Of a stretch of 64,000 nucleotides of DNA, positions 3,601-62,194 are shown piece by piece. Made by a program: the position numbers and the translations under genes. Below the pieces are notes generated by a model that saw nothing but the letters and a program-made list of their open reading frames with translations, did not search any database and was not told the DNA's origin. Origin of the DNA: Eledone cirrhosa (taxonomy: Eukaryota); the NCBI GenBank assembly GCA_964016885.1, contig OZ024742.1, forward strand, positions 345,216,001 through 345,280,000. The letters run 5' to 3'. How positions within the stretch are numbered: position 1 is the first letter of the stretch; each line of letters starts with the position of its first letter.

Positions 3601-3603
<3 letters not shown>

Positions 3604-4111
3604 GATAAATCTACCAAAAGTTTACGGTAGTGTCCAATCCGTATGAAGAACTCAATGTAATCCGGATATCATGAAAAGAAGAGATGCATTCAAAAATCAC
3701 TTTCGGTGAAAGATAAACGGAATACAGAGTCAAGATAAATTATTAAAAAAATAATGAATAAACAAAGAAACAGTTCCTTATATTAAACAAAAAAAGTTCA
3801 TTATTTTACGATCGTTTCTAGGACATATATGTGTTAGAATTGGTATGCATATTCAAAAGATCTATGTACAAAATTATACAAACTATCAAAGAGAATATAC
3901 ATACCTTCACATATATATGCTGTCTTCAGAAATAATGTGAAGGTATGTATATTCTCTTTGATAGTTTGTATAATTTTGTACATAGATCTTTTGAATATGC
4001 ATACCAATTCTAACACATATATGTCCTAGAAACGATCGTAAAATAATGAACTTTTTTTGTTTAATATAAGGAACTGTTTCTTTGTTTATTCATTATTTTT
4101 TTAATAATTTA
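3601..4111 (-). mobile_element. Penelope-like pLTR remnant with inverted duplication, bounded by (TA)n
   Basis: 3601-3900 matches the 3' end of the Penelope element at 35758-36035. Arms ~3735-3912 and ~3935-4111 are inverted copies. Confidence 0.8.
3799..3937 (-). ncRNA. Type I hammerhead ribozyme with ~100-nt stem II
   Basis: Minus strand reads CATTATTT-CTGAAGA-[long hairpin]-GAAA-CGATCG-TA-AAATAATG. Stem I is 8 bp, loop III is palindromic and the cleavage triplet is GUA. Confidence 0.8.
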
Positions 4112-4165
4112 TATATATATATGTATATTAGTATCGGTGCCCTGAGATAGCGATGTATGTATGAA

Positions 4166-15233: not shown

Positions 15234-15298
15234 TATTTTATTATATATATTTCGAGGGTAACCAAGACAACATTGGTACGCTTTCATCAGATAAAATA
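15234..15298 (-). ncRNA. Minimal type I hammerhead ribozyme in pLTR
   Basis: Minus strand reads TATTTTAT-CTGATGA-aagcGTACCA..TGGTTACcctc-GAAA-TATATA-TA-ATAAAATA. Confidence 0.78.
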
Positions 15299-19328: not shown

Positions 19329-21324
19329 TAAATTGCGTATGTATTAGTTGTTTATATATCGAATATTGATTTTGTATGTTACTTAAAAATAGATGGTTCA
19401 AGTTGTGGATTCAAACATTTTGTTCAACATTGAAAATGTTTTCAGAATATTTTTAATTTAGCGAAGCTATACAGATTATCAAACATAATATGTTTATGTT
19501 TGCACGAGTGAGAAAGGAAAGATAACTCCAATTTTGTTTGTTAACCATTAAATTAGATGAATAATTTACTCTAAAATATATAGAGAAAATTATATATTAT
19601 TTTGTGTGAGATCCATTATTTTAGTCGAAAGATGTGTGAATGTTTGAATAACAAAAAGAGAGAGGAAAAATGTAATGTTGTTTTCGAAGATCTATCGTAA
19701 AGAGGATACATTTTCAGAATGTCATTTAAAGATTATCAATCTACATCCAAAAATATATTTAGAGCGGTGTCCTTAGAAAAATAATGTCGGAATTAAAAAT
19801 AATGTCAGAATTAAAATAATGTCAGAAATTAAAATATTAAATATATATATTAAAAATATTATAAATAGTAGAGATATTAAAATTTTTTAGAAATATTAAA
19901 CATATTTTATAAATATTTAACATATTAAAAATATTTTTAAAAAATTTACATTTAAATTTTTAAAAGGGTAAGATCCTTTTGAAGGTGTATAGGAATATTA
20001 TAAATTAAAACTATTTCTGAACGTGGAATTTTGGCGATGTTTGCAAGAAGAAAATAATTCTGTTCTGAGATTAATAGAGTTTTGACAGTTAATTATATAA
20101 AAAATTTCTTCGATACACAATTTACAGAAGCTTGATAAAGCCGTATTTCGGTATGCAGGTGCTTTTGAAATCGTTCTCCAAGATATTGAATAGTCTATAT
20201 TGTTGTCTTTTAAATTCCAAATTAGATGTGAAAGTGAAGTAGAAGATTTTTTATCAGATCTCCTAAATGTATGATTATGGTTATTCCAGCATTCTTTAAA
20301 TTTTTTTGAAGTGGCACCAACATAGTTAAACATGTTTTCTCTAGTTTTAACTGTGCATTTATAAACTATGTTTTTGTCTAAACAAGTATTTTGTAAAGGG
20401 CAGTTTGATTTGATTCTTCAGTTACATTTAATGGAATTATTGTTGTTCAGAACGGTAATATTATTCAGAATATTGTTGTTAGAAATATTATTATTGCTAT
20501 TTTGGTTAGTTTGGTTAGGGTTTAAATTTAAGTTTCTATTATTAATTATATTTATATTTTGTGCTATGTTCATAGTAGTAGAGTAGGATAGTTTTATAGT
20601 GTGTCTGTTAAAAATAGAGTGGTATATGTGGGCTTTAGGAAAACATTTATTTAGTGCTTTAAAGAATAGCTTTGCTAAAGGTGTTTTAACGCTTAATGAG
20701 AATGGGGGAGAGTACTAAATAATATTTCTAGTTCTAGTTTTTTTGTCTGGTTTAGTGTTTAAGTTAATACTAGGATGATATGTCATGTTATTGTTATCTA
20801 TGTATTTAATTCTATTCGAGTATACTGATCAATGTAAAGCTTCATTATAATATTCAGCCTTATCATCAAAAATATTTTTATTAGCGCAGATGCGTGAAAT
20901 CCGTTGGTGGACGCTATTGACAATAATGATTTAATATTTCTAGGATGATTAGAATTGAAACTTACATAATTTAGATTTTCGTTCATTTTATGGAAATGAT
21001 AGTGAAGACCTGTGCTAAGGTTTAAAGTTACATCTAAGAAGTTAACGATTTCTAACTTAAGATTGTAGTTGTTGAAAAATTGTATTATGGATTTTCTTTT
21101 CCTATTAATTTCACTATTGCTATGGTTTTCAGTTAAAAGCAACATATCGTCACAATATAAACCCCCGGTCATCTCTGGCATTTCCCTATGCAGTACATTA
21201 TTAATAAATAATCCAACGAGGTCTGTAAGTTGCGCCGAGTCAGATGATCCCATAGTGATATCAAAATTGTTTTTGCTGTCGGCTCTTGTCCAGAGATGAT
21301 TATTAAATTCTATTATATATATAT

Positions 21325-21371
21325 ATATATAATGCACTGGGTATTGATGGCCTTGTGCCAAAAGTAGAAAC

Positions 21372-21423
<52 letters not shown>

Positions 21424-26866: not shown

Positions 26867-29800
26867 ATTATATTTCAAACATACATTTATTTCAAAGATT
26901 TTTTTTCTCCGTGTCAGCTATATATATATATTTATTTCTATATTTATTTCTAAGATTTCACCGTAGAGATAACATATATTTATACATACATGACAGAAAG
27001 TGAACATGGGATGCAGAAAGCATTTCTCATCTAATTCCCAACGCATGGCAGCAGACGCACAAAGACAAAGAGAGATGAGGGCAAATCAATCAAACAATAA
27101 TCGCTCTACAACATCCCAACACATTTCTACAAATTGTAACACACCAACAACAACTTGCAACAAATACACCAAACGTTCAGAGAGGAAGGAACAGGTCAAT
27201 TGAAGGTCTAGCAAAGAGTCTTACAGATGAACATTTCCAGGAGAAAACTGTTCTTTCCATAATGCCACAACATAATGTAGGGTGTCTCTTTGCCTCTGTT
27301 TGTCCGCACTGCAAATCTTACCGCTGGCCACACGAGTCCAAATCTCTGTGTTGCTTCCAGAGAAAAGTGAAATTCCCTCAACTTCCTCCTCCTCCACCAA
27401 ATATACTGAAATATTTCGATATCATTCAAGCAGGAAATTCTTTTCTCCATAAGATACGTGCATATAACAATGTGCTTGCCTTAGTAAAGAGATTAGAGCA
27501 CCAGTATTTAGTCCCATCTGTAAGATCCAAGGTAAGATTTGTCATGTTATTGGATCACTACCTCCAAGTGATGCTTCACCCAAGTTTGCGCGGCTTTACT
27601 TCTATGATACAGATCATGATCTTCTGAATCGCTTGCATCATGATAATTTAGATGCTGTTGTCCTCCAGAACCTACAAGAAGACTTGTACTACCTCAATAC
27701 CTTAAGGGAGTCTTTGAAATGCTAGTCTCTGAAAATGTGAATATTGACCTACATGCTGAAAAAGTAAAACCCACTGATTTTCATTGTCACACATACAATC
27801 TTCCTATAGCATCCGAGATTGCTGTCTCTTGGATGTCATCATTCATAAACGAGATGGTGTTCTTCAGAGGATTCATCAGTTGTACCGTTCTTTTGATCCT
27901 CTGCATTATGTGCTACTGTTTCCTTGGGGGAATGATGGGTTACAGGTTAGTTTTAAAAGGATTGACAACCACACACTCACACCCACTGATTTCTTCTGTT
28001 ATCGGTTTCAGGTTAGGCAAGGTGATTGTAACATTATCATGAAGAGCGGGCGGCTGATGCAGCAATATGCTGTAGATGCCCAGGCAAAAATAGAACATTG
28101 TCGTCTCAAATGGGCCCGCAACAATCAAACCATGATATGAGCTGAAAAGTATGAGGGTTTGTACGATGCTGTGACTGAAGGAGATTCATTAAATTTAGGC
28201 CAGAGAAACGTTCTTCCTCCTTCAATCTATGGTTCCTCTCGCGTCTACAGTGAGTGCTTCCAGAATTGGTTCGATGACTGTGGTTCGACTCACGGGAAAG
28301 CCATCTTATTTAATCACAGTAACTAATCCTAACTGGGATGAAATAAAAAGATGTCCTATGAAAAGTTGTTGATCGTTCTGCTAGATGAGTACGGCCTCAT
28401 TTCTGCTGATAATAGCTGACGATAGCAAGCCCAAAACTGCAGATGCCATTGATCAGGTAGTGTACTATGAGAGACACCTGATAAAGAGACCCATCCAATT
28501 CTGGATAAGATCATCATATCCTGCAAAGTTCATGGCCCATGTGAACAAATTAATATGATGTGACCATGTATGGGAAGGCTAGCCAACAACTCCATTGCTC
28601 AAAACGTTATTCTAGGGCAGTCAGACAAACCACATTTGTTACCAAGACTTCTTTTCCGGAGTATAGAAGGAGGGGTAGACAAGATGGTGGTCACACCCAT
28701 ATAATCTAACTTAAAGGTCAAATATGTACAGTTGATAACCGTTGGATTGTTCCCCACAACCCTTTCCTCTCATTGAGATATCAGTGCCACATTAATTGTG
28801 AAGTTACCACGGTGTGAAGGTTGTTAAGTACATCACAAAAGGATCAGACAAGATCACTCTCACTCTTAAGGATGATCAAGGAAATTGTGTCCATGCCCAA
28901 AATGAGATTGAGACCTATATCAATATATGGTACATCTCAGCCAGTGAAGCATTCGAGAATCTGTAAATTTCCGTTACATCATCGAAAACCACCAGTTGAA
29001 AAGTTGCCTTGCCATTTACCTGGAGAACAAATCGTCGTGTATGAGCGAGAGCAGGGAGAGAGTGTTGTTTCTAGCGGACAGCCAATGATTAAGTTGACAA
29101 AATATTTTTCAACTGAATATTAGAGACCCACTGGCACAAAATATATTGTATATTAATATTCTTAAATATTTCACTTGGATTACAAAAAGTGGCAAAGAAG
29201 AAAAAAGAGACATCTGGATGGTGATCAACAATTTATGAGTGAATCTCTTGGGCGCATTCTAACAATATCTCTCAGTAGACATCAATCTGAATTATATCAC
29301 CTCAGGATGATCCTACATCACAAGGCTGGGTCAACTTCATACAAAGATTTGAAGACAATTAAAGTTGAATTTCCAACATCCCAAGAAGCATGCAGGAAAC
29401 TTGGTCTGTTGGATGAAGATGGAGAAAAAGACAAAGCTATAGAAGCGACATCATCCATTACGCTTTGTCCTCAGCTGCGAGAGATCTTTTGCACCATTTT
29501 ATTGTACTGCATGCCAAATGACCCTCTGCAGTTCTGGGAGAAATGGAAGAATTGTCTTGCAGAGGATATCGTGCAAGAACGTCATGAGCAAGCCATGTCC
29601 ATGCAAACCGTGCAGATTGTTCTACAGAAGATCCAACAAAGACTTCAAAATGATGGCTTGGACATTCATGTCAACTATGGTCTTCTTCGACCAGACCCAA
29701 CTATTATTGCCATACCAGAGGGTTCTAATGGCAGAAACTGATTTCATTACACATCAACTGCAAATAAACATAAATGAACTTCTGCCAACATTGAATCCTG

Positions 29801-32800
29801 AGCAACTGGATATTTTTGAAAAATAATCACCTCTGTAAATGCTAATGAAGGTAGAATGTTCTGCTTGAATGCAAGTGCAGGTACGAGAAAGACTTCTGTC
29901 ATCAACATCATATTGGATAACCTCCGATCTAAAAATAAATTGCACTTGCCACTGCCATATCTGGAATAGCAGCCACTTTGCTTCACAGGGGTAGATCTCT
30001 TCATACAAAATGGAAGATTCGTCTCAATGTGACAGTTGAATCAACTTGCTTCTTCATAAAAAGGGATGCCACAGGTAAACTTATGCAGCAAGCTGACCTG
30101 CTAATCTTTGATGAGATAAGTATCGGACATTTGATGAGATAAGTATGGGACATAAGCATATCTTTGAATGCCTTGACAGGAGTTTCAAAGATGTTCGAGA
30201 TTGCAAAAAACCATTTGGTGGTCTAACAGTATTACTATCTGGTGACTGGAAGCAAATTCTTCCAGTTGTACGTCAAGGTGCTAGACCACAAATAGTTGAG
30301 GCAACCATCAAGAGATCTTATCTCTGGGACTATGTGAAAACCATAGAGATGACAACCAATCAACGGTTAATTAATGCAGAGGATTCTGTTGAAAGACAAT
30401 TTGAAAACTACCTTCTTGATGTGGGAAATGGTAACATTCCAACTGTTCCAACTGTAGGTGCATTCATAATTCCTCTATCAAATGAACTTTGTCTGGAATA
30501 TGGTAATGTGTCTGGACTGTGAGATTTTGTGTATACACATCTTCCAGGAAACTACACAAACCCTCTATGGCTTGCAACTACAGTAATTATCACTCCAATA
30601 AATGATGCCGAAAAAATGATGAATGAGTTTATGTTCAACAAGTTCCCTTGTCATGAAATAATCTACAGAAGCTCTGATGCAGTAGATAATGAACTGCAAT
30701 ATCCAATTGAGTTCATCAACAAACTTACCCCATCAGGCTTCCCAGCACACATACTTAACTGAAGAAAAGCAGTTGCATCATGCTTCTGAGAAATCTGGAT
30801 CCTCTAAACGAACATTGCAATGGTATACGCTACATCATCATCAGTTTAAATAATCATGTAATTGAAGCTGAAGTGGCATTGGGTTCCAATGCTGGAACCA
30901 ATTTCCTGTCAAACCAGCTTTTGCCCTTACATGCAACATGACACAAGGGCAGACATTTGAACAGATAGGTGTATATCTACCAACACAATTCTCCTCACAT
31001 GCTCAGATGTATGTTGCATTATCAAGAGTGACAAAAAAAAAATATATATATAGACATATTAAATAAAAGGGGTCTGTTTGGTGACAACTGTGTCTGCAAA
31101 TTCTACAGTGATGTGGTGCAGCTATCACTCTCTTTTAATTGAAATGCTTTTCAGTTTCTTTTTAATTGCTAGAAAAGGGACACTACAAAAACTTAAGAAG
31201 CCTATATGTGAATACAGTAAAACAACAACATAGCGAAGGTCAACTCTTCATATTGGTAAATATAATTCATACATTCATACCAGCAGCATCTATTTTCAAA
31301 TTCACTGCTTGAAGTTTCCCATCGACATTCTCAAGTGAAGATTCATGAACATTTTCTGTCAAACGTGTCATCGCTTTTCCATCTTCATTATCGCCTTTTT
31401 TTAAATGATCATGGATTTCTTTACTGATTACAGAAGTAAGTCTTTGTTCTGTCTATGTGCGTATTGTCAATTTACTTTTCAATTTATGTATCATATCTTT
31501 ATGCATATATATTTGCGTATATCAATATGCACAGTACATATGCTAACAGAAAACAGCCCGAGGGCGGTTCTTCTGCTAGTACTATATAATATCGTATTAA
31601 AAGCAATTAGCGAAGCTAAAATATCCGGGCACATATCTTCTGAAATATGTGAGAATATAATTATTTTTCAACAGTAAAAAATAAACATGAATTCAATAAT
31701 GTGATTAATTTTGTTTATTACTATTCGGCAAGAGAAATTGATAAAGTTACTTGAGATGAAAATATAAAATAAGACGTAGACATAAATAATGACTCCTATT
31801 CAAATTGGCAAACCGATAAAAAGTTGTTTGCCTAAGAATACCTGTAAAAAGGAAACAAAATAAAATTAAACGAGAATGCTTTTAAAACCTATAATTAAAA
31901 TGTGAACTCAAATGAAACTTCATTACACAAAGAAAAAGATATAATCTTTTTTTGTCTTTCGGTAAAACGATTATTTGTTTGGCTAATGTTCCATTAATAT
32001 CGGATCCTTTCTTCCCTAGTAGATTCCTTTTTTCGTGCGTGCCAGATGACCTGATAGGTCAGTTGTTTCAAACCTTTTATGATCACAAGTCATTTTGGAA
32101 ATTCAAAACTACATCACGACCTTCTGGTTAGTTTCATTGTTTGTTTGCTCTCATTTTTATAACACAAATCAATTTTCTAACTATCGTATAACTTTAACAT
32201 TAGACATTTGTTTTTCTTTGAAACATATTCCTCCTAAGATTTTATTTGGAGCAGCTGTTATTTTGTAGCTTTTATGTATATGTCGTATTGTATAACACAT
32301 TCATAGATTTGTTTTTACAATTTATTATATGTTTCAACTGTAAATGAATTAGTCTTCCGTGCACATATGCTAGGAACCACTTAAATAGATCGTCTCTGTT
32401 TAGTTCAGATAAATAATATTTTTTCGCTAGTGACAGTTTTATCATGTCTACAATATTTTACAAAGGAAGTTACGCGCACTGATGGAAATATCAAGAAAAG
32501 ATAAACATAGACTATTTTTCAAATAATAATCTTCCACGTTAAGGCAGTGAATTGGTAGAATCCTTGGAACATTGGATAGAGTTCTTTGACGTATTCGATC
32601 CAGCGCTCCGAGATCAACTTGGCCTTTTATATTTTCAACGTCGATGAAAAAGTACCAGTCCAGTATTGGGAGTGATTCTATCTCTATATCTCTCATTTCA
32701 TCTGTCATAACATATATCATTACGGTCCTCATCACCCTTTAAGTCTTACCCGATACTATCATCAAATGAAATACAAACAGAAAAATTGATTCTACTTTAG

Positions 32801-35697: not shown

Positions 35698-35760
<63 letters not shown>

Positions 35761-38700
35761 GATAAATCTACCAAAATATACGGTAGTGTCCAATCCGTAT
35801 GAAGAACTCAATGTAATACAAATATCATGAAGAGAGAAGATGTATTCAAAAGTAATTCGATGAAAATCACAGGAAAACAGAGTCAAGATAAATTAATAAA
35901 AACAATGAATAAAAACAAAGAACAAGTTCCTTATATTAAAAAATTCATCATTTTACGATCGTTTCTCGGATATATATGTGTGTTGGTATATATATCATAT
36001 AGATCTATGTAAAAATTTTACAAACCATCAGAGGAAAAGGGGTCAAGACGGTGAAAGGTACACGAAAATTTGATGTTATTAAAGAATAATGCTAATGTTA
36101 AAATCGAAGGAGATTAACATTTTAGGGTAAAGGTGTTAGTGAGAGATACCAATCTTATTTAAAACACAAGGAATTTAAATCTATAACAAGAAATTAAATT
36201 GATTGATAGGTATACTTATAGGGATACATTTATATTAATTCATATGGAAGTGATAAATAAGAGTTAGATGTTATTAAAGAATCTTGTTAATAACGAATAA
36301 ATAAAATTTTGGGATAAATGTATTAGTAGTGAGAAATACCAAACTTATGTAGGAATACAAGGAATCTAGATTCATAATAGGAAATTAAATTAATTTATAT
36401 GTATCCTAATAGGTATTAATTTTAGGAAAAAAGAGCTGTAAAAGGAAAATAAAATTATGATGTTCTCTGTAGTAAAATACTAATTATAGGTTAACTAAAT
36501 TTAAAAAAACTAATTATAATAATATCTAAAATATAAGTGTAAGGTGTATATTAATGTCCTTCTAATTCTATGATTGCAAGATATAATTAATTCTTGTCGC
36601 TTATTTAATAGGATATCCTTAGATTTCATTATTTCAAAAAGTTCCTGGGAACATAATCTACACTCATATCTGTTATTTTGATAAGGGGTGTCCCTTTTGA
36701 GCAGACTCCAGGTCGGGTTGTAATCGAGATTCTTTTTTCTATAATTATTTATTGTTTCAGCCAAGGATGTTGTATTAGCTAATGCGGCATTTTTAAAACT
36801 ATGTTTGTGGGTATTAAATCTTACTTTAAATTGGTTGGAAGTAGCTCCTATACATGAATAAGTTGAGTCCTTAGTGCTGATTTTACATTTATATTCTATG
36901 TTATTAATAAGACAATTTCCCTTAATGGGCAATTTCTTTTGTTTCTACAGTTACAACCATTCGTGAATATTATATCAGGGGAGTTAGTCAAATTTGGTGT
37001 GGAAATTACTCGACTTGTTATATGTGAAGGAGATGGTGGTTTGTTGCGGTTTATTTTAGTATTATGGTTGGTGTGATGTGTTAGTGGTATATTCGTGTTT
37101 TTTTTTACATTTATATGCATTGTACGCATCTATATTTTGTTGTATATTTTTGGTAGTGGAGTAGGAAAATTTGACAGTTGATCTATTTAAAATTTGATGG
37201 TATTTATGGTTTGGCGGGAAGTTCTTCTCTAGGATAGTAAAAAGATTTTTAGGGATATTATCTTTAATTTGTAGATTAAATGGAGCATTATACCAAGTAA
37301 CGCATCTATTACGGTTTCGATGTTGTTTTTTATATTTATACGATGTATCAGGATGTTTATTAAGAGAGTTAGTATTAGTGAATTTATTATATATAGGTTT
37401 AGTTAGATTCACTGATTTAGGTGTTTTAGTCTGATTATTAGGAATTTTGTTAGTAATGTTATTAACGTATATTGGAGTATTAGGATGAATGGTTTTTTGA
37501 AAGTTATTATATTTTATGTGAGAAGAGGTAGAGAAATTAAGTTTTAAGTTGGTACTTTAGGGTTTAGGTGTGTCTTTTTCATTTGGTGTTTGTTGGTAAT
37601 ATTGGGTTGTATGTTTGAAGTATTATTGGTGCAAGCTATATAGACAAATTTGTTTTTGTGGCCGCTTCTAGCTAAAGCTTCGTTATAAAAGGGCGCATTT
37701 TTATCGAATACATCCTGGTTAGATGAAAGGTTAGACATTCTGTGTGAGATATTATATGGTAGGTTTTTAAGGATAGATCTAGGGTGATTGGATTGTGAGT
37801 GTATGTAATGTAAGTTTTGGTTAGGTTTATGGTAAGGTTGGTAGATACCCGTAGATAAGTCTAAAGTTATATCTAGGAAATTAACTACTTTACTGGTGTT
37901 TTTCAAATGTAATAGTGAGACTATAATAGTCTGTGAGAAAAGTTCTAATAAGTTTTTTATTTTTTTCAATTTCTGATAGGCTAAGGTTAGTGGAAAGTAA
38001 AAGAAAGTCATCACGATATAAACCACCTTTAAGGTGGGGAAAATAAGCATTTATGTAAAATAGAAGAAAGCGGCCCACGAGATCGGTAATTTGAGCAGAA
38101 TCACTAGAGCCCATAGTAATGTGGAATAGATTACTATATGTATTTCTGGTCCAGTATTCCTTCTGAAATTCTAATAGTGTTTGTCTAGCGTGCGTGATAA
38201 TATTAATGTCGTCCATAGTTAAGTTTGATCTATTTTTGGCAAATATCAAGGCTTGTTTAGGAGTATGGGTGATATAGAGGGATAATAAGCATCTATATCA
38301 AATTGTAGAAAAGAAGCAGATGATTTATTTCTAATATTAGTAAACCAGTTAATTACCTGGGATGTGTTTTCACAGATATGAGTGTAGATTATGTTCCCAG
38401 GAACTTTTTGAAATAATGAAATCTAAGGATATCCTATTAAATAAGCGACGAGAATTAATTATATCTTGCAATCATAGAATTAGAAGAACTTTCAAATATT
38501 ATAAACCTAATTAATATACACCTTACACTTATATTTTACATATTATTATAATTATTTTTTTTTATTTAGTTAACCTATAATTAGTATTTTACTACAGAGA
38601 ACTTCATAATTTTATTTTCCTTTTACAGCTCTTTTTTCTTAAAATTAATACCTATAAGTATACATATAAATTAATTTAATTTCGTGTTCTGAATCTAGAT

Positions 38701-39240
38701 TCCTTGTAGTCTATATAAGTTTGGTATTTCACACTACTACATTTATCCTAAAATTTTATTTTCCTTCGTTTTTAACAACATTCTTTAATAACATCTAACT
38801 CTTATTTATCACATCCATATGAATTAATATAAATTTATCTCTATAATTATACCTATCAATCAATTTAATTTCTTGTTATAGATTTAAATTCCTTGTGTTT
38901 TAAATAAGATTGGTATTTCTCACTAACACCTTTACCCTAAAATGTTAATCTCCTTCGATTTTAACATTAGCATTATTCTTTAAAAACATCAAATTTTCGT
39001 GTACCTTTCACCGGCTTGACCCCTTTTCATTCCCAAACTATTTTTTTCATTCAAAGTATTCTTTCCATTCAAAACTTAAGTCAGCATTCCTCTCCCTCTA
39101 AATTAAATTTCTACTACTACTATTCTATCAACTTGACCACTTACTACTTTTCTATTGTTCAATTCAAAACCTGTTCCCAAACAGACCTATTATATTAAAT
39201 CTTTGTTGTTTTTTTTTTCAATAAACAAATATTATTTCTG

Positions 39241-39398
39241 GTCGGACGCCATGCTTTGACGCATAGAGTTACGGCCCTTGCCATTCTGAGTTCAAATCCC
39301 GCCGAGGTTAACTTTGCCTTTCATCCTTACGGGGTCGATAAAATAAAGTACCAGTAATGTACTGGGTAATTGCTGGCCTTGTGCTAATAGTAGAAACA
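39241..39398 (+). mobile_element. 5'-truncated SINE in the pLTR, 10-bp TSD
   Basis: TSD ATTATTTCTG at 39231-39240 and 39399-39408. Confidence 0.88.
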
Positions 39399-39530
39399 AT
39401 TATTTCTGAAGACAGCATATATATGTGAAGGTATGTATATTTCCTCTGATGGTTTGTAAAATTTTTACATAGATCTATATGATATACATACCAACACACA
39501 TATATATCCTAGAAACGATCGTAAAATGAT
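39399..39530 (+). ncRNA. Type I hammerhead with long stem II (homolog of 3799-3937)
   Basis: ATTATTT-CTGAAGA-[~100 nt]-GAAA-CGATCG-TA-AAATGAT. Confidence 0.75.
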
Positions 39531-40158: not shown

Positions 40159-43100
40159 CTACAGGATGGTATACAGAGAAGGCCCATTTACACGAGCCAT
40201 TCTCGCCACTATCACCCACCCTTCATAAAACTGCCTGTGGCCAAGCACCTCTCTCTCCATTCTTATCCTTCTTCCGAAGTGATATCGGAAGAAGTAGACC
40301 AGACTATGGCCAGAGAGGAAGTTGCTTGACCTCAGACCTTTCAATCGTGTCCACCAAACAACCTCTTTCAACATGGCTATTACGCACAGAAAAACCGCCT
40401 TTGCTTCCTTTGTGAAGAGGGGAGGCGGTTTGATTGTCATCACGGACTCGGCGGTCAATTTAATCGGCGCCACCCGCGACAGCAGTCGTTCTGCGTAGCC
40501 CCACAGATCAGCCACGCCCGGACATTGCACCAATGCGTGCGCAACGGTTTCTTCGTGACGCACGCATCTAGGGCAAATCTTTTTTGAGGGATCCCTGCCC
40601 GGGCGCCCGTGTCTGTAGAGCCTCTCTCGAACGGGTAGAGCCCCCCGGTAGCACTGCCAGGCCAGTGACTTCTGGAAGTTGTCCATTGGTCCTGGGCCGA
40701 AAGTCCTACCGAACAGGCTGGCCAGTTCGTGTTCTTCCATGTCCAGCGACTCTCCAAGGGTGTCATCGCCCCTGCTAGCCACCAGCCCTCTATAGAATGA
40801 TGAGGTGGATTCTCCACCGATGGCCTGGCGCGCTTGCCAGAGAGCCCTGAGCGCCTGAGCACACTCAGTGTGCCAGTCTCCCAGTTTTCCGGATCTTTGC
40901 TTGACCCAGGACTGTAGCTCGGTGAGCGAGACGAGTCTCGGAAAGGCTCGTTTCACGAACGGAGCCCACACCGGTTGACCAGTGAGGAATACCTGTAGGT
41001 GCCGTAGCCTTAATGCGTGCCTACGCATCATCAACCACGGCATCCCCAGCCCTCCTTTCGAATGTTGTTGGCAGCAGATGGATCTTCTCACCATAGGAGG
41101 GCGCTTCTTCCAAAGAAATTGGAAGAGCATGCGTTCCATGGTGGTGAGTGTTTCCTTAGGGCAAGGCACGACAGTCAGGCGGTAGTAAGTGACGGACGCT
41201 ATGTAAATGTTCGCCACCTCCGCCCGGCCTTTTAGGGACAGCTTACACTTGGCCCATTTCTGGGTTAGTGCAAACACCTTGTTCGTAACCTCGTTCCAGT
41301 TCTTTTCCACCTGGAGGTCCGGTCCAAACCAGACCCCAAGCAACTTTACCGGGCCCTCCGTCCAGTGTCCGACGACACCGTCAGGAGGCATCGGTCTGCC
41401 TCTCCACGTTCCGAGTTGCAGCCCGATGGATTTTTCCCGGTTCAGTTTCGCTCCTGACAACCTTTCGTACTCCTCCAGTAAGGTACCGATCGCCTCGATC
41501 TCCGAGTCGGTCGATACCATTACTGTTACGTCATCGGCGTAGGCCGACACCGCTTTGCTCAATCCTGGTTCCAGGGGTATACCCTGCAACAACTCCAACT
41601 TCCTCAGTAAAGGCTCGAGAGTCAATACGTACAGAAGGGAGGAGAGAGGGCACCCCTGTCGAATGGATCGTGTGATTTCGAATGGCTTCGAAAGGTAGCC
41701 GTTCACCTTGATCCTAGAACAGATGTGGTTGCTATGTAAGGCAGTGATCCAGCCTCTGAAAACAGGACCGAACCCAGCCGCCGCTAGCACCGCATCCAGG
41801 TAACCATGGTCGAACCTATCGAAGGCCTTAGACTGATCCAAGTTGATCAGGGCCCCACCGAAGCCGGGTTTGTTGCCAACCCTCTCTATGATGTATCGCA
41901 TGAGGTGGAGGTTATTGTGAATGGACCTGGATGGGATAGCACATGTCTGCGCATCTCCCACCAGGCCACCCACGACAAGCGCCAACCTCTTTGCTAACAC
42001 CTTGGCCAAAATCTTTAACTCTGTGTTTAGCAGGGTTATGGGCCGAAAATTATTTATACTATCTCCCTTGTTCTCGTCCTTCCTCGCCAGCGTGACTACG
42101 CCCTTGGCTACAGAACAAGGAATTCTCCCGTTCTGCTGCCAATTGCAGTAGACCGCTTCGAGGAGTTCGGAGAAGAAGACCGGCATTGCTAAATAAAGTT
42201 CGTAAGGTATACCATCGAGACCTGGAGGTTTGCGTCTGCTGCATTGGCTCAGCGCATCTCCGATCTCATCAGCCGAGATTGGTCCCTCGCAGGACTCTGC
42301 CTCTTCGCTCGAGAGACGCGGTAGGCCGTCGAGGTATGGACCGAAATCCACGCCCCCGCCCGGACCCTCGCCTCCCCCGAACAATCGGGCAAAGTGTCTT
42401 TGAAAGGCCTCGCACATCTGCTTAGGCTCCCGGATCACCCGTCCATCTTCGTCTTGCAACGACCGGATGGTGGATCGATTTCCACTCTTAGCTTCTGTCA
42501 CGCGGGCCCAGCCAACGGCTTTGGCCCCCTCATTACCTAGAGCACGTATTTTACTTCGAATGACGCAGCCTTCGTGCTTTGCATCGAAAACCTGGTTCAA
42601 GGCCGTCCTCGATGCCAGCACTCTGGCCACATATTCGCTCTTGATTGCCTCTTCTAATTTACCTGTTAATTCTTTCTCGTTTCTATTCCTATCGGCAGCT
42701 AACATCTTTCTATAACTTATTGATTCTGTTCTAATCTCTCTTTTGAGAGATGCCCACCATCGGTTGTTGACGATTGCACCCGTCAACCTCTCCTTAACTA
42801 ATCTGCTAATCCGGTTTCTGTAAGTCTCTTTTGCCGGTAAAGACAAATTAAGTTTCCAGTAACCGGGACCCTGTTTATGTGTTTTCTCGAGATTGACTAC
42901 GCAGGTCACTAATTTGTGATCCGTGTAGCCAACCGTGCCCATTTCTGGACAGCTTAATATGTCCCTATCCTTACTTCTAACTAAGAATCTATCTAAGTAC
43001 GATCTAGATTGACCACTGTGGTTTCTCCAAGTCCAGGTAGGCACAGTTGGAAAATCTAGTCGATATCTATCGACCAAGTTCAAACGGTCGAGTAACCCCT

Positions 43101-43596
43101 TGAGGCTGTTACACCCCCCTCTAGTAGAACATGCTCCTGCATAGTCCCAACGTGCATCTAGGATGTCATTCCAATCCCCCGCTAGAAGCAGGGAACGCGA
43201 CGTTCCCAGAAAAGTCTCCAAACGCTGGAAGAAGTCGGGCCGTTCAGCTCCGAAAGGGGAGTAGACGGCGACCAGTCTCAAGGCCGCACTTTCACTACTG
43301 CCAACGTCTAGCACCAACAAACGACCCTCCGGGTCCGAGTGAACAACCTGTACGGCAAGACCCAGGTGTTTTTGCAGCAGTACGACAACCCCACCCCCAC
43401 CTCCAGGTTGACAGAGAGATGCATGCACCTCAAAGTCATCGAAGGTGGGGGCCAGCTGCCGCACGACGCTGATTCGAGTCTCACAGATAACCATTACATT
43501 TATACTACATGACCTGAGGTCATATAGAAGCTTTGCTTGCTTCCAAGTTGAGCCCAGGCCACGTGCATTCAAACATCCTACTCTTAACACATCCAT
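40159..43596 (-). CDS. ORF2: AP endonuclease + reverse transcriptase + C-terminal zinc finger, 1145 aa
   Basis: APE motifs LNARGL, ICET, AVYSP, GDWN, YLDRF and TDH. RT motifs PGLDG, RPITLLN, LDQSKAFD, RQGCPLS, YADD and KLLGV. CPRC..HALVQC at the C-terminus. No stops. Confidence 0.95.
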   Translation of the reverse strand: MDVLRVGCLNARGLGSTWKQAKLLYDLRSCSINVMVICETRISVVRQLAPTFDDFEVHASLCQPGGGGGVVVLLQKHLGLAVQVVHSDPEGRLLVLDVGSSESAALRLVAVYSPFGAERPDFFQRLETFLGTSRSLLLAGDWNDILDARWDYAGACSTRGGCNSLKGLLDRLNLVDRYRLDFPTVPTWTWRNHSGQSRSYLDRFLVRSKDRDILSCPEMGTVGYTDHKLVTCVVNLEKTHKQGPGYWKLNLSLPAKETYRNRISRLVKERLTGAIVNNRWWASLKREIRTESISYRKMLAADRNRNEKELTGKLEEAIKSEYVARVLASRTALNQVFDAKHEGCVIRSKIRALGNEGAKAVGWARVTEAKSGNRSTIRSLQDEDGRVIREPKQMCEAFQRHFARLFGGGEGPGGGVDFGPYLDGLPRLSSEEAESCEGPISADEIGDALSQCSRRKPPGLDGIPYELYLAMPVFFSELLEAVYCNWQQNGRIPCSVAKGVVTLARKDENKGDSINNFRPITLLNTELKILAKVLAKRLALVVGGLVGDAQTCAIPSRSIHNNLHLMRYIIERVGNKPGFGGALINLDQSKAFDRFDHGYLDAVLAAAGFGPVFRGWITALHSNHICSRIKVNGYLSKPFEITRSIRQGCPLSSLLYVLTLEPLLRKLELLQGIPLEPGLSKAVSAYADDVTVMVSTDSEIEAIGTLLEEYERLSGAKLNREKSIGLQLGTWRGRPMPPDGVVGHWTEGPVKLLGVWFGPDLQVEKNWNEVTNKVFALTQKWAKCKLSLKGRAEVANIYIASVTYYRLTVVPCPKETLTTMERMLFQFLWKKRPPMVRRSICCQQHSKGGLGMPWLMMRRHALRLRHLQVFLTGQPVWAPFVKRAFPRLVSLTELQSWVKQRSGKLGDWHTECAQALRALWQARQAIGGESTSSFYRGLVASRGDDTLGESLDMEEHELASLFGRTFGPGPMDNFQKSLAWQCYRGALPVRERLYRHGRPGRDPSKKICPRCVRHEETVAHALVQCPGVADLWGYAERLLSRVAPIKLTAESVMTIKPPPLFTKEAKAVFLCVIAMLKEVVWWTRLKGLRSSNFLSGHSLVYFFRYHFGRRIRMEREVLGHRQFYEGWVIVARMARVNGPSLYTIL

Positions 43597-43629
43597 GTGG
43601 GCGGCAGAGCCAAAGGAGAGTGTAGAGAC

Positions 43630-44913
43630 CTACCTTTCCGCTTCCCGGGGTTCGGGTTGCACGACTTCCATGGGGTCGGGGGTGTTGGGTGAAGGGGTGT
43701 CTTGTGGTGGTGTGGGGTCGTCAGTGTGTGGTGGTGTTGGTGTGTTTGGAGTTGTGTTGGGGAGGGGAAGGGGAGGGGGAAAGCTTTTTAGTAGGACGCG
43801 GTTTATGGGTTTGACAGAGGGTGGTCCTACGTCCTCCTTAAAATCCTTTTTTAGTTTTTGGTAGAGGTTCATTGGGATCTTTATTAATTTTAAATGTGGG
43901 TAGTTTTCTGAAGAAACAAAGTTTACACCTTCGGTTTGTACCGAAGGATTATTGTATATGAGTTCATTTAATTTATTATTGTTTCTGTTGATGTAAGTAT
44001 AGTGTAATGTCTTTTTTTCGGATGGTGTGAGTGTTTCGAAGAGGGGAGGGGCAGGTTTGGTTTTGTTTGTTGCTGGAGGGGTGTTTTCTGTTTTGTTGGA
44101 TTGTGTTGAGATTTGGGTGGGGATTGTTTGGCCTTGTGTGTTTTGCACATGTTTTCTTTTTTTCCTTTTAATCTGTCTGAAGGACTCCGTTTCTTCCTCC
44201 GAATTCGTTGGGTTATCTTCAGTGTTGGAGGGAAGAGGTATGTTTGCTGGTAATGTTTCCGTGTTGGTTTTCTTTGTGGGGGAGATGGATGTCACTATGT
44301 TAGACTGTGTTGTGTGTTGTGTCTGCGGTGGTTGTGTTGTTTTATTGAGTGAGAGGTTTTGTGGGCCTGTATTTTGTTTTGGGGTAATGTGTTGTGACTG
44401 TTTGTGTTGTGGTGGTGGTGTGGTTTTACTGAGGGACGGGTTGGGTGGGACTGAGTTTTGTTGTTTGTTTATCTGTTGTGGTGGTGGTGATGGAGCTGGT
44501 GTTGGTAGCAGGGTTTTCTTTTTGTTGAGTTGGGGACAAGCGGCCTTCAGGTGCCCTCTGCCTGCACAGATATGGCAGGTCGGCCTTCTCCCCTCCACGC
44601 TAATGTTTATATACCCGTGGTCCTCTAATAGGATTCTGTCGGGTATTTGGGCGATGCGTTCAGGCTTCATTTGCACTACCAGCTCTATACCTGTTCCACT
44701 GAACGCATTGCCTGTGGTTTTCCCAATGGAAATCACGTTGTCATTCACTGGATCGATGAAGCCAGCTATGAGCCAGCAGTAGTCCACATCTGGCATCATT
44801 GCATCCAGCCATATGCGTTGAGTTCTTTTCCCCATATAAGATGGATAAAAGGTGAAATTTTTCGAACGAATCGGTGACAAAGCACATTTTTTTGCCGCCG
44901 ATTCGTTCTTCAT
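43630..44913 (-). CDS. ORF1 (gag-like nucleic-acid-binding protein with CCHC knuckle)
   Basis: CHICAGRGHLKAAC knuckle, a Pro/Thr-rich linker and a basic KRKKRK stretch. The frame stays open for 56 more codons up to 45081, where the element is truncated. Confidence 0.85.
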   Translation of the reverse strand: MKNESAAKKCALSPIRSKNFTFYPSYMGKRTQRIWLDAMMPDVDYCWLIAGFIDPVNDNVISIGKTTGNAFSGTGIELVVQMKPERIAQIPDRILLEDHGYINISVEGRRPTCHICAGRGHLKAACPQLNKKKTLLPTPAPSPPPQQINKQQNSVPPNPSLSKTTPPPQHKQSQHITPKQNTGPQNLSLNKTTQPPQTQHTTQSNIVTSISPTKKTNTETLPANIPLPSNTEDNPTNSEEETESFRQIKRKKRKHVQNTQGQTIPTQISTQSNKTENTPPATNKTKPAPPLFETLTPSEKKTLHYTYINRNNNKLNELIYNNPSVQTEGVNFVSSENYPHLKLIKIPMNLYQKLKKDFKEDVGPPSVKPINRVLLKSFPPPLPLPNTTPNTPTPPHTDDPTPPQDTPSPNTPDPMEVVQPEPREAER

Positions 44914-45110
44914 GATAATTGCTAGGCTTCCATACAGTCTGTCTTTTCTTATGAAAGTGGTTTCATTAAGTACTTCTGTGAGTACTGTTTTGATATCTGC
45001 TTGAGAAGGCTGTTCAGGTTTTTTTGTACTGTTGTTGATGGTCCGAAACTTGACCGATCGGCTTTCAATGTCTTTGGTGAAATAGATAGATAGATAGATA
45101 GATAGATAGT

Positions 45111-45155
<45 letters not shown>

Positions 45156-58010: not shown

Positions 58011-60778
58011 GTACAGGGATATGCATCTCATACATACAAACATGCACATATATATATTTATATACAAACTCACGAATATATATATATATATACATATAGT
58101 AATAATAATAAATGTGAAGACTAAAATACGAAGAGGGTTTTAAAAAGGATAATGTATATATCAAATATATAAGAACCATAGAGGAAATATTTATTAAAAT
58201 AACTGATTAAATTTATGCAAAGAATCGCTGCTTTCACCTTTATACATGTATATGTATATATAAGGAGAATAGGATAGCTGTGTAGTTGCCAGTAAAGTTA
58301 AGCTTAAAAATGGAATGAGAATAAGAAGAAAGCAAGAACGGGGGGTGGGTGTGGGTCCTCATCAGTTGTCTACTGGGGGGTCTCGGATATTTCAACGCTT
58401 TAAAGACAATATATCTACTTCCACACACATATATATATATATATCAAATGCAATGAAAGGATATTTGTGTTTGTGTGCATGTGTGCATGAGTGTGCTTGT
58501 TTGTGTGTGTGCGTAAGCGTGTGTGTTTTTTTAAACTTCAATGATTTCATATGACGAATGTTAGAAACTGGATTCTATGAAGAACGTTATCTCGTCTGTC
58601 TATCTCGTGTATAGACACAAATGGTGAGATAGTTAAGGTGTTCCCGACTCTGACGTTCGTTTAGAAGGCATCTGGTCTAGTTATGACACTGGCCTCATTA
58701 TCATAATGTTGAAGGCTCAATAACCAAATAGGGTGTCATGTTATGTCATTGAGCAAGGTGCTCCAGTTCATATTGCCCCAGTTTATTCAGCTGCATTTGG
58801 AGCTTAGCCCTGTGACAGAAGGGCGTGCATTCCTTGGGGCGTATTGTATTTTGAGTAACTTAAATTTCATGTAATCTGGAACCTCCAATAACAGCACTTG
58901 TACTTGATACGTATAACGGTTAACAACAAACAAATGTGTATCTCAGACTACATTATTCAATGTGACTCGTTTTACGACCAGGTATCTTCATAATATCTAT
59001 AGTTAAGGTAATCGATACACAATGTTGATTGATACACTAGCGACAGCCAAAACTTATTTTCCTTTCCGGATTGTTTGGTGTGGTGGGTGGGAGAGGGGGG
59101 GGGAGAAGAAAAAGAAAAAGGAAACAAACGATGCTATCCGCCGATCAAAATCTCTAGGGAAAAGCGGCAATGTGAAATGAAATATATCGATCACAAGATG
59201 ACAACTGGTCAGGGAATTGAACCCCTTACATATGATCATAAGTTCAAAACTCTTGCCACAAGCTACATGCCTTCACAAATAAAATAGCCATATCGTCCCA
59301 TCGGACCAAGTAAATAATGTTTCCATTGGTCTCTCCATTGCTGGTGTTATCAGCCAGTCGCAATCTCTTGGCAAAATTCTCCGTTTTTATTCGATGTGAA
59401 ATATTTTGCCGGAGGAAAACAACAGACCACCCGGTCCAGGAATTGAACCCACGACGTTATGACCATGAGTCGAATACTCTAACCACTTGACTTCGAACCT
59501 TTAGAAACTTTCACCGAGATATCTACACCTTAATAAAATATGATTCTAAATGTAATAGCGTTTCTCTAATGGGTTTGATGCTAAATTTGTTGTACCACAG
59601 CTTGATAGGTCACACTTTTAGCTAGTTTAGGTATCCCTAATGCGTTTGATACTAAATTTGTTGGCTGATCACTGCATCACACAGCTTGAGTGGGAACGTT
59701 CGCTCTCAAAATGGATATAAACTTACGTAAGTGGATTGGATTCCTCATGGAAATAACACCATACATGATATCCTAATATCAGATAGGGAACAATGATAAT
59801 GTGTGGTGCCTTATCAACTGACTTCGTTACTAATCACTATTCTAATTACATGTATATTTAATTATTGTACTGAATGCTGAAACCTTAACAGTAATGTAAC
59901 AACAATGCAACTATCGCAACTTACGAGGAAACGTTAGATTCATAAGCCAGTTAATATTTAAATCAATCATGAGGACGCATTTTAAAATTCATTCAACGTG
60001 TTCTCCTAATTTCGGTACGTGCCTCCAAATTCGATTCACAATTTCCATTGAGATACTTTAGAATGTACACTGTATAAACAAACATATGTGGAAGGAGCAG
60101 AATACCGATTGGACCTCTACGCTTTTATTCGATGTGTTGGGAGTAGCTGTCAAATTATTTTTAATTTACAAACTAACATCTCACAACGGAGAGGGACACT
60201 TTGGGAAAATGTAGTCCTAACTTTAGAAGACATAGTCGGAGGCTAGCTGGCTGTGTAGTATATTAATCATAACCTCCAGCTCCAGCCTGCCAGCCACTAT
60301 TACTGTGATTTGCTGATCTCGTAGCAGATAATGGTACACGTGGGAAACCGACACCGATTGACAATGTAGTGGTAAGGTCGAATTTTGGAAATCCCTAATA
60401 GGACTGCTGGCTGATGAGAATTCCATTATCCGGATTTTCTGGTTATGAATTTATTATTAATCGATGATCGGCGGATAGTTCACGGATTCTATACTAGCAT
60501 AATGTACATGTTATACTCCGGCAGATTATTGTGTGCCAGATACTGACTGTTACAATTGATGAAATTTTGAGTACTTTAACGGTTCTATATGTTAATCTGT
60601 CGCTACAATAATTACACTAGTTTCATAGCTTATGCCTCTGGCTGGGAATGTTGTCTTACAATTAATCCTATGCAGGTGCTCCAAATATATTTGTTGAGCA
60701 AATTGTATATCAATATATATATATATATATATTGGATATCAATATATATATATATATATTGGATATCAATATATATAT

Positions 60779-61345
<567 letters not shown>

Positions 61346-61633: not shown

Positions 61634-61688
61634 ACTGCTATATATATTTCAGTGACAGCCATCTTTGGCTGTGACCTCTTCAGGCAGT
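61634..61688 (-). ncRNA. Minimal type I hammerhead
   Basis: Minus strand reads ACTGC-CTGAAGA-GGTCACAGC..GCTGTCACT-GAAA-TATATA-TA-GCAGT. Confidence 0.82.
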
Positions 61689-62139: not shown

Positions 62140-62194
62140 ACTGCCTGAAGAGGTCACAGCCAAAGATCGCTGTCACTGAAATATATATAGCAGT
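62140..62194 (+). ncRNA. Minimal type I hammerhead
   Basis: ACTGC-CTGAAGA-GGTCACAGC-caaagatc-GCTGTCACT-GAAA-TATATA-TA-GCAGT. Confidence 0.82.

What the first reader, a model, noticed from the sequence alone, without database searches (positions are those of the whole stretch)
3799..3937. Hammerhead ribozymes with abnormally long stem II
Seen: the catalytic halves CUGAAGA and GAAA-CGAUCG-UA are separated by ~100 nt that fold back (CATATATATGTG..GGTATGTATATTC / GAATATGCATACC..CACATATATG), and a perfect 8-bp stem I closes the motif. The homolog at 39399-39530 keeps the core and stem I (with a G-U pair). An unrelated family at 60833-60943 has the same design with an ~80-nt stem II. Established: Penelope pLTRs carry minimal type I hammerheads with palindromic loop III that can cleave as dimers, usually with a short stem II. 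Inference: these long-stem-II variants would be missed by standard descriptors, and the extension may be a protein-binding or regulatory module.
Basis: partly seen in the sequence, partly recalled or inferred. Interest (0 to 1): 0.75.

Follow-up and report, generated by a model that had tools for sequence, protein, structure and literature searches.

The report
Long-armed hammerheads in Hydra Penelope elements
These are hammerhead ribozyme motifs at the ends of an abundant Penelope-type jumping gene, with one arm three to five times longer than in described relatives; they likely cut RNA in pairs and likely form the very start of the element's transcript.

Summary
The three motifs are real type I minimal hammerheads with 104-, 99- and 82-nt inserts at stem II (none in 40 shuffles). 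They lie in the end repeats (pLTRs) of Hydra-clade Penelope-like retroelements. The genome holds 10,781 and 802 exact pattern matches and intact tandem units with an 813-aa ORF. Published Hydra hammerheads have at most 26 nt there. The long arm folds and covaries, occurs in at least four families, and has grown by a 10-nt duplication. About a third of family A/B copies break 7 nt before the core, at an initiator-like motif; family C has a TATA box 32 nt before its own. So the hammerhead likely opens the transcript. Almost no copies start at the cut site, so uncut RNA is the likely template. Cleavage is untested and no RNA run was listed. The arm is most likely a paired spacer; a translation switch is the bolder reading. 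This scan noted long-armed Hydra hammerheads before, in this genome and others. Verdict: new variant of a known kind.

The parts
3799..3937 (-). Type I minimal hammerhead, subfamily A (104-nt stem II insert)
   Evidence: 30 listed genomic matches are 100% identical over all 139 nt, one being this copy
3930..3937 (-). Stem I 5' strand; A at 3936 is the initiator-like base where family copies most often begin (putative transcription start)
   Evidence: this copy's junction has a 3-nt overlap at 3935-3937
3923..3929 (-). Core 5' half CUGAAGA (C3-A9)
   Evidence: sequence; no listed variant here in laid contigs
3819..3922 (-). Long stem II: C.A mismatch, 2 bp, C.C mismatch, 11-bp helix, 13-bp helix, apical hairpin
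3807..3818 (-). GAAA, palindromic helix III (ACGAUCGU) and H17; predicted cut between 3807 and 3806
   Evidence: self-duplex -10.0 kcal/mol
3799..3806 (-). Stem I 3' strand
3602..3798 (-). pLTR 3' part to the first fixed end (70 nt after the cut) plus the optional ~135-nt tail, ending at (TA)n
3935..4112 (+). Head-to-head inverted partner copy; begins inside stem II, lacks CUGAAGA, ends at (TA)n
39399..39530 (+). Hammerhead, subfamily B (99-nt insert), 7-bp stem I
39241..39398 (+). SINE-like repeat inserted into stem I 5' strand with a 10-bp target duplication (39231-39240 / 39399-39408)
38372..39240 (+). End of the GIY-YIG coding region and 3' UTR of the element that carries hammerhead B
35698..38376 (-). 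Inverted partner of B: broken RT-EN ORF, 3' UTR and a pLTR that lost the 5' core half by internal deletion
60833..60943 (-). Hammerhead, family C (82-nt insert; helix III ACAAUUGU; predicted cut after 60838)
60777..60953 (-). Family C pLTR stub; begins at the initiator-like TCA (A at 60951, 13 nt before the core)
60951..61276 (+). Head-to-head inverted partner of the family C stub, starting at the stem II apex, with tail

Best explanation
These are minimal type I hammerhead motifs in the end repeats of Hydra-clade Penelope-like retrotransposons, which likely cleave slowly as dimers, likely form the first 110-140 nt of the element's transcript, and whose long stem II is most likely a spacer kept paired so that the core can fold. 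Shown: the motif, its place 0.5-4 kb downstream of a Hydra RT-EN ORF, tandem pLTR-ORF-pLTR units, folding and covariation of the arm, growth by duplication, the pile-up of copy 5' ends just before the core, and the rarity of 5' ends at the cut site. Inferred: transcription starts at the initiator-like base 7-13 nt before CUGA. The reverse transcriptase starts about 70 or 205 nt downstream of the cut site, copies through the uncut ribozyme and runs off at that start, which gives the short head-to-head stubs seen in the window. Two ribozymes (the two pLTRs of a tandem transcript, or two RNAs) would pair through the 8-nt palindrome and cut, perhaps with protein help as in the Anolis element. Because a minimal hammerhead has no loop I-loop II contact, stem II would be free to lengthen provided it stays paired.
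For: Motif above chance. Same-strand Hydra-like ORF within 4.5 kb upstream in 33 of 159 A-group and 13 of 47 family C motif occurrences in the fetched loci (overlapping loci counted more than once; most loci hold only 1.5 kb of flank). Two tandem units with intact ORFs and hammerheads 6,680 and 6,450 nt apart. Pairing: 92.2% of cells and 18 double-sided changes in 13 A-group sequences, 84.3% and 22 in 16 family C sequences; each measure was reached by 0 of 500 shuffles, and slid controls paired 26-57%. Inserts of 11 to 116 nt among 55 motifs in 994 kb, with long arms of different sequence and shape. A 10-nt unit occurs 1, 2 and 3 times in the 104-, 116- and 126-nt arms; the 3' UTR grew in parallel from about 0.7 to 2.4 to 3.5-4.2 kb. 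Double-hammerhead fold -79.0 versus -67.8 kcal/mol for two monomers. 5' ends: 3,105 of 9,634 copies depart at the base before ATTATTT, but only 251 of 6,529 at the next base upstream; 0 of 30 inspected were point mutants. TATA-to-initiator spacing is 32 nt in 2 of 4 family C representatives. Only 39 pattern matches for starts at the cut site, in line with uncut RNA as template in Anolis (PMC11167929).
Against: No cleavage or transcript data. The base of stem II is a C.A mismatch in 11 of 13 aligned A-group sequences, and U.U is reported as the best-tolerated mismatch there (PMC3088659), so activity may be very low. Most family C copies carry A9 to U, its minimum-energy fold hides the core, and RNAalifold does not recover the hammerhead fold for family C. 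Pairing is kept far from the core (6 of 17 distal pairs in family C have double-sided changes) and the apical helices of the A group hardly vary; this is more constraint than a mere spacer needs. The aligned sequences are related and were mostly picked by patterns that demand the core, so the shuffle counts are not probabilities. An initiator-like motif was found near the core in 7 of 15 representatives, and at -22 in one more; the A group has no TATA box. About a fifth of the 3,105 departures are SINE insertions (6 of 30). An extra cap-derived G was not evident (22 of 100 listed).
Confidence: 0.55

Rival explanations
1. The long arm is a cap-proximal brake on translation. The uncut RNA, with a strong hairpin and several upstream AUGs near its 5' end, is kept silent and used as template; self-cleavage removes cap and hairpin and lets the ORF be translated without a cap.
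For: Stem II starts at +15 to +21 from the putative start, folds at -22 to -39 kcal/mol and holds 1-5 AUGs; the ORF AUG is at +495. Copies derive from uncut RNA. Type I hammerhead cleavage is needed for cap-independent translation in a fungal virus 5' UTR (PMC13725137, passages). That a -30 kcal/mol hairpin near the cap blocks ribosome loading is recalled, not from a call.
Against: Short-armed Hydra families thrive without it. Five or more AUGs remain between the cut and the ORF. A 5'-OH RNA may simply be degraded. No expression data.
Confidence: 0.2
2. The extension is a binding site for the element's RT-EN protein or a host dsRNA-binding protein and helps fold or hold the ribozyme.
For: The Anolis PLE hammerhead cleaves only with its protein (PMC11167929). 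In the A group the apical helices barely vary (helix 4: 2 of 3 pairs, helix 5: 4 of 7 never vary) while the basal helix is replaced in subfamily D. A C.C mismatch at the fourth pair recurs in the A group and in 26-31-nt families.
Against: No sequence or shape is shared between the A-group, C/E and F arms. The apex tolerates 10-nt duplications. No A-to-G excess from editing (19 versus 17, p 0.32).
Confidence: 0.15
3. The motifs are catalytically near-dead and are kept for another reason, such as overlap with the internal promoter or an RNA fold used in reverse transcription.
For: C.A mismatch at 10.1-11.1, A9U in the majority of family C, and no cut-site footprint. Penelope's promoter lies downstream of its start site (PMC2377424). 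Catalytic mutants did not affect insertion in vitro.
Against: The full core and a palindromic helix III (ten different palindromes) persist across all families sampled, and stem I covaries (C-G to U-A in 7 of 16). In 14 copies found without using the core, every core half that was present kept CUGAAGA or GAAAC.
Confidence: 0.1

Closest known systems
Hydra clade of C-terminal EN+ Penelope-like elements, including Hydra-1_Obim (Craig et al. 2021, PMC8557442; passages and Files S1/S2 seen)
   Same: RT then GIY-YIG; DKT, CxCX5C, CxxC and CxH motifs; (TA)n targets; 3' hammerhead; mismatch at the base of stem II (U.U in many listed rows)
   Different: The 26 Hydra rows of File S2 have stem II of 3-7 bp and at most 26 nt between the core halves; here 79-126 nt. 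Units here reach 6.5-6.7 kb versus about 3 kb or less.
[quoted passage not shown]
   Same: Type I topology, palindromic positions 15.2-16.2 and loop 3, predicted dimer cleavage, many solo or inverted copies
   Different: Helix II there is 6-8 bp with a conserved G10.1-C11.1; here about 30-45 predicted bp with C.A, U-A, G-C, G.U or U.U at the base.
Poseidon element PAc of Anolis (PMC11167929; passages and part of the main text read)
   Same: Two fixed 3' ends defining a tail; uncut RNA appears to be the template; no footprint at the cut site
   Different: In PAc the ORF starts inside stem II; here the ORF starts about 350 nt after the cut.
Type I hammerheads in 5' UTRs of fungal RNA viruses (PMC13725137; passages read)
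   Same: Type I hammerhead without loop-loop contacts upstream of an ORF
   Different: Monomer-competent helix III and helix II of 0-8 bp; translation role tested there, only hypothesised here.
Metazoan non-LTR retrozymes (PMC7229834 passages; bioRxiv 10.64898/2026.07.22.740005 part 1 of 5)
   Same: Type I hammerhead with weak helix III, tandem units
   Different: Families A/B, C and E are tied to coding elements; only family F (97 nt, no ORF within 1.5 kb in 20 loci) may be of that kind.

Membership tests
Hydra-clade PLE | Single ORF, RT followed by C-terminal GIY-YIG endonuclease | tested here: met
   813-aa ORF in L171: YRDD at 346, VYK..YIG at 692
Hydra-clade PLE | DKG modified to DKT; RWK motif; GxKF/Y absent | tested here: met
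   DKT at 115, RWR (not RWK) at 37, no GxK[FY] (definitions)
Hydra-clade PLE | Linker CxCX5C, CxxC and CxH around conserved E/N, no CX2-5CxxC or CCHH finger | tested here: met
   CxCX5C at 673, CxxC at 771, CxH at 799, no CX2-5CxxC; CCHH absence judged by eye; CxCX5C also in families C and E
Hydra-clade PLE | Insertion into (TA)n; pLTRs, inverted 5'-truncated copies, optional tail | tested here: met
Hydra-clade PLE | Phylogenetic placement with reference Hydra RTs | not tested
   Reference sequences were seen only in a supplement and compared by eye; the tree holds only this genome's sequences
Minimal type I hammerhead (PLE min-HHR) | Core CUGANGA / GAAA / UH in a three-way junction closed by stem I | tested here: met
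   most family C copies have A9U, but the window copy has A9
Minimal type I hammerhead (PLE min-HHR) | Short palindromic helix III that allows a dimer | tested here: met
   ACGAUCGU -10.0 and ACAAUUGU -6.4 kcal/mol as self-duplexes
Minimal type I hammerhead (PLE min-HHR) | Conserved G10.1-C11.1 pair | tested here: not met
   A group: C.A in 11 of 13 and U-A in 2; family C: G-C 6, G.U 4, unpaired 6 of 16. Many published Hydra motifs also lack it, so it does not define the Hydra variant
Minimal type I hammerhead (PLE min-HHR) | Short helix II (about 4-8 bp) | tested here: not met
   79-126 nt inserts; this is the variant feature
Minimal type I hammerhead (PLE min-HHR) | Site-specific self-cleavage | not testable with these tools
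   No RNA run listed; genomic footprint at the cut site weak or absent
Naiad PLE | N-terminal GIY-YIG, DKA motif | tested here: not met
   Endonuclease is C-terminal and the motif is DKT
Non-LTR retrozyme | Non-coding tandem monomer of a few hundred nt | tested here: not met
   Families A/B, C and E lie downstream of an RT-EN ORF

The most novel reading that the evidence does not exclude
In these Hydra elements the hammerhead is a cap-removing switch. The capped transcript opens with stem I and a long, AUG-rich hairpin that silences it and keeps it as reverse-transcription template. Dimer cleavage cuts off cap and hairpin and turns the RNA into a cap-independent message, and the arm has lengthened in more than one lineage to tighten that control.
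Probability: 0.2. Interest if true: 0.75.

Novelty: new variant of a known kind. Interest (0 to 1): 0.48.

Why it matters
What pLTR hammerheads do is an open question (PMC8557442, PMC11167929). This genome offers a young, apparently intact 813-aa element and a natural series of stem II lengths from 11 to 126 nt, plus genomic evidence for where the RNA starts. That makes three things directly testable: whether the arm matters for cleavage, whether cleavage removes the cap, and whether cut and uncut RNAs serve as message and template. It also shows that descriptors with short stem II limits undercount: 14 of 55 motifs in 994 kb had inserts over 70 nt, so PLE families reported as lacking a hammerhead deserve a second search.

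Tried and rejected
Naiad assignment: rejected by domain order. Chance or palindrome artefact: rejected. Genomic footprint at the cut site: 39 matches for subfamilies A and G; of 30 inspected, 4 were mutated intact copies and 26 were junctions spread over 0-4 nt with no peak at 0. A-to-I editing signature in stem II: none, 19 A>G versus 17 T>C in 138 copies. Downstream promoter element at +28-33: 2 of 8 representatives, not consistent. Leader intron: donor and acceptor are not conserved between L171, L172 and L210. Cap-derived extra G: inconclusive, 22 of 100 (hand count). No RNA holder listed. Rfam: no hammerhead among the 150 shown of 286 matches at E up to 5, and 0 at gathering score. Pfam gave no significant family for the six broken PLE ORF pieces of the window. 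The protein atlas gave no answer. A bacterial promoter scan was irrelevant. ARAGORN found no tRNA gene in the SINE. The subfamily D slice was out of register and its z-score (-1.7) is not used. Independent origins of long arms are not proven: the tree is a quick, unrooted one on 140 columns with a single short-armed lineage linked. Two relevant papers were not held: Lunse et al. 2017 and Arkhipova et al. 2017.

Full report
Observation. A descriptor (CUGANGA, insert up to 250 nt, GAAA, palindromic loop, UH, stem I of at least 4 bp) finds six motifs in the window: the three named, with inserts of 104, 99 and 82 nt, and three with 26-30 nt. It finds none in 40 dinucleotide shuffles. The first and third named motifs are on the minus strand. 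The inserts fold as long hairpins with z of -4.9, -5.4 and -2.0.

Context. The window lies in a 3.0-Gb assembly. The host is likely an octopus; this is an inference from likeness by eye to Hydra-1_Obim and was not tested. The A/B pattern matches 10,781 times and the family C pattern 802 times, with 0 for the reversed controls. Thirty listed matches to motif A, this copy included, are 100% identical over its full length, so that subfamily is young. Motif B is a 97-99% family and family C is older, 88-97%.

What carries them. The motifs lie 0.5-4 kb downstream of an RT plus C-terminal GIY-YIG ORF. Two loci hold tandem units: hammerhead, leader, intact ORF (813 aa in L171), 3' UTR, hammerhead, with the two hammerheads 6,680 and 6,450 nt apart on one strand. 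The protein has DKT, CxCX5C, CxxC and CxH and lacks CX2-5CxxC and GxKF/Y. These match the Hydra clade as defined in PMC8557442 (passages). Copies end in (TA)n either 70 nt after the cut site or about 135 nt further on, like the two reverse-transcription starts of the Anolis element (PMC11167929). In the window, A and C are short head-to-head inverted stubs. B ends a longer copy whose stem I is interrupted by a SINE-like repeat with a 10-bp target duplication.

How unusual is the arm. File S2 of PMC8557442 lists 26 Hydra rows with at most 26 nt between the core halves. In 994 kb of this genome (the window, 200 kb beside it and 73 grid stretches) a similar descriptor found 55 motifs: 18 with inserts up to 20 nt, 13 with 21-35, 10 with 36-70 and 14 with 71-140, three of those being the window's own; shuffles gave 0, 1 and 0. 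Besides the A group (99-126 nt) and family C (79-82 nt) there are young families E (92 nt, Hydra endonuclease upstream) and F (97 nt, branched arm, no ORF within 1.5 kb in 20 loci). A quick unrooted tree of 76 endonuclease pieces puts C and E together (support 99) and the A group far from them, with a 31-nt lineage outside both. More than one origin is plausible but not proven. Within the A group a 10-nt unit occurs once, twice and three times in the 104-, 116- and 126-nt arms.

Is the arm under constraint. On 13 A-group sequences the hand-drawn structure is paired in 92.2% of cells with 18 double-sided changes (0 of 500 shuffles for each; 7 pairs, 35 of 500); slid controls give 26-57%. Subfamily D replaces the A-U-rich basal helix with G-C pairs; one of the 7 pairs is probably an alignment artefact. 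On 16 family C sequences: 84.3%, 22 cells, 9 pairs (2 of 500), 6 of them in the distal helix. The sequences are related and mostly picked by core-containing patterns, so these counts overstate significance. RNAalifold on family C returns only the apical hairpin and a competing pairing. In 14 copies found with the arm interior alone, 11 had an intact CUGAAGA, 3 lacked that half, and all kept GAAAC. In contigs of four public runs none of 23 listed variants fell in the core.

Dimer. The helix III palindromes pair at -10.0 and -6.4 kcal/mol. A double hammerhead is about 11 kcal/mol better than two monomers for A and G; for A it equals the minimum-energy value of the tandem model and for G it is 2.5 above it. 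For C an inactive fold is 8 kcal/mol better. Points against strong activity: C.A at 10.1-11.1 in the A group, where U.U is reported as the best-tolerated mismatch (PMC3088659), and A9U in most family C copies.

Where the RNA starts. Following leads from earlier notes I mapped 5' ends. Of 9,634 exact matches to ATTATTT plus core, 3,105 lack the C that precedes it, whereas only 251 of the remaining 6,529 lack the next base. Of 30 inspected, none kept the family's upstream sequence. By eye, 20 were inverted junctions, 6 SINE insertions, 2 (TA)n and 2 unique DNA; the script's labels were 18 inverted, 5 SINE and 7 other. In 50 copies from less biased loci, 21 were intact, 5 had a SINE and 24 ended 3-11 nt before CUGA, mode 7. 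The position one base downstream was not counted genome-wide. The mode is the A of TCATTA, an initiator-like motif (consensus recalled). In family C the mode among 23 non-intact copies is 13 nt (5 copies), again the A of a TCA motif, with TATATAA 32 nt upstream; E has TCAGT at -12 and TATAAAA 22 nt before it; several short-armed families show no such motif. Both window stubs begin at these bases within a 3-nt overlap. Penelope pLTRs are known to hold promoters (PMC2377424; PMC3846280; passages). In contrast, a pattern for starts at the cut site gave 39 matches (subfamilies A and G only; it detects about half of such junctions), with no peak at 0 among 26 junctions.

Mechanism. Most likely (0.55) the transcript opens with the hammerhead, uncut RNA is copied, and cutting is slow, dimer-dependent and perhaps protein-assisted; the arm is a paired spacer free to grow. 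Rivals: a translation switch (0.2), a protein-binding arm (0.15), a near-dead motif kept for other reasons (0.1). No expression or cleavage data could be had.

Literature. Searches found no description of PLE hammerheads with 80-125-nt stem II. The longest in the table I saw is a spike-moss element with about 54 nt, and 'half-core' Naiad cases at 35-50 nt are mentioned. Lunse et al. 2017, with about 150,000 variants as recalled, and the Terminon paper were not held, and supplements of PMC4209133 were not read; these could hold precedents. Papers seen: PMC4209133 parts 1-2 of 4; PMC8557442 passages and supplement part 2 of 59 plus search hits; PMC11167929 passages and section 3 part 2; bioRxiv 10.64898/2026.07.22.740005 part 1 of 5; passages of PMC6765202, PMC13725137, PMC3846280, PMC2377424, PMC7229834 and PMC3088659. 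Earlier notes of this scan report long-armed Hydra hammerheads in this and other genomes; they are not independent support.

Verdict. The feature is real and abundant, a new variant of a known kind. The length series and the start-site evidence make the function of pLTR hammerheads testable. Interest 0.48.

Noticed in passing
window 39241-39398; L044, L047, L048, L052, L055-L057, L059, L062, L069, L137, L160, L234, L243, L330-L333: A SINE-like repeat has inserted independently at the same base of stem I (target ATTATTT..., matching its own 3' end) in 20 distinct A-group copies, with target duplications of 4-20 bp and insert lengths of 68-311 nt; 6 of 30. It hits the putative start site of the element. 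Enrichment over other ATTATTT sites was not measured.
   Followed up: partly
family C, e.g. L090, L277, L254: A core variant A9 to U (CUGAUGU) makes up most listed family C copies and defines amplified subfamilies.
   Followed up: partly
window 15234-15298, 61634-61688, 62140-62194; L106:3879-3928: Short-armed hammerheads (26-31 nt) share with the A group a C.C mismatch at the fourth pair of stem II; the pair at 61634/62140 is inverted.
   Followed up: no
L195:8130-8265; G000:C2:161067682-161068816 and 161148655-161149788: Family F: 97-nt branched stem II (z -6.6), 40 of 40 scored copies identical, same-strand pairs about 1 kb apart, no ORF within 1.5 kb; may be a retrozyme-like dependent.
   Followed up: partly
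L110, L202, L038 (49-52 nt); L119:- (61 nt); L037:2418-2472 (36 nt): Further families with intermediate stem II lengths and other palindromes; the 50-nt family also has C.A or U-A at the stem base and covarying pairs. Their ORFs were not identified.
   Followed up: no
window 40159-45162 (-): Apparently intact L1/Tx1-like element: 1,156-aa APE-RT-zinc-finger ORF and an upstream ORF with a zinc knuckle; a near-identical copy is in L040. Older relatives at 48855-53498 and 403-1390.
   Followed up: no
window 27079-30522 (+): Broken Helitron-like region with Helitron_like_N and PIF1 matches.
   Followed up: no
window 19998-21373 (-): Another broken Hydra-type RT-EN ORF, nearest to the 31-nt-arm lineage in the tree; no hammerhead within 4.5 kb downstream.
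   Followed up: partly
window 62450-64000: Minisatellite with an apparent 18-nt period and self-complementary units that gives many inverted-repeat and spurious miRNA matches.
   Followed up: no
L171, L172, L121 versus L031-L039 versus L046-L070: The 3' UTR between ORF stop and hammerhead grew from about 0.7 kb (B, D) to 2.4 kb (A) to 3.5-4.2 kb (G), apparently through simple repeats, in the youngest subfamilies.
   Followed up: no
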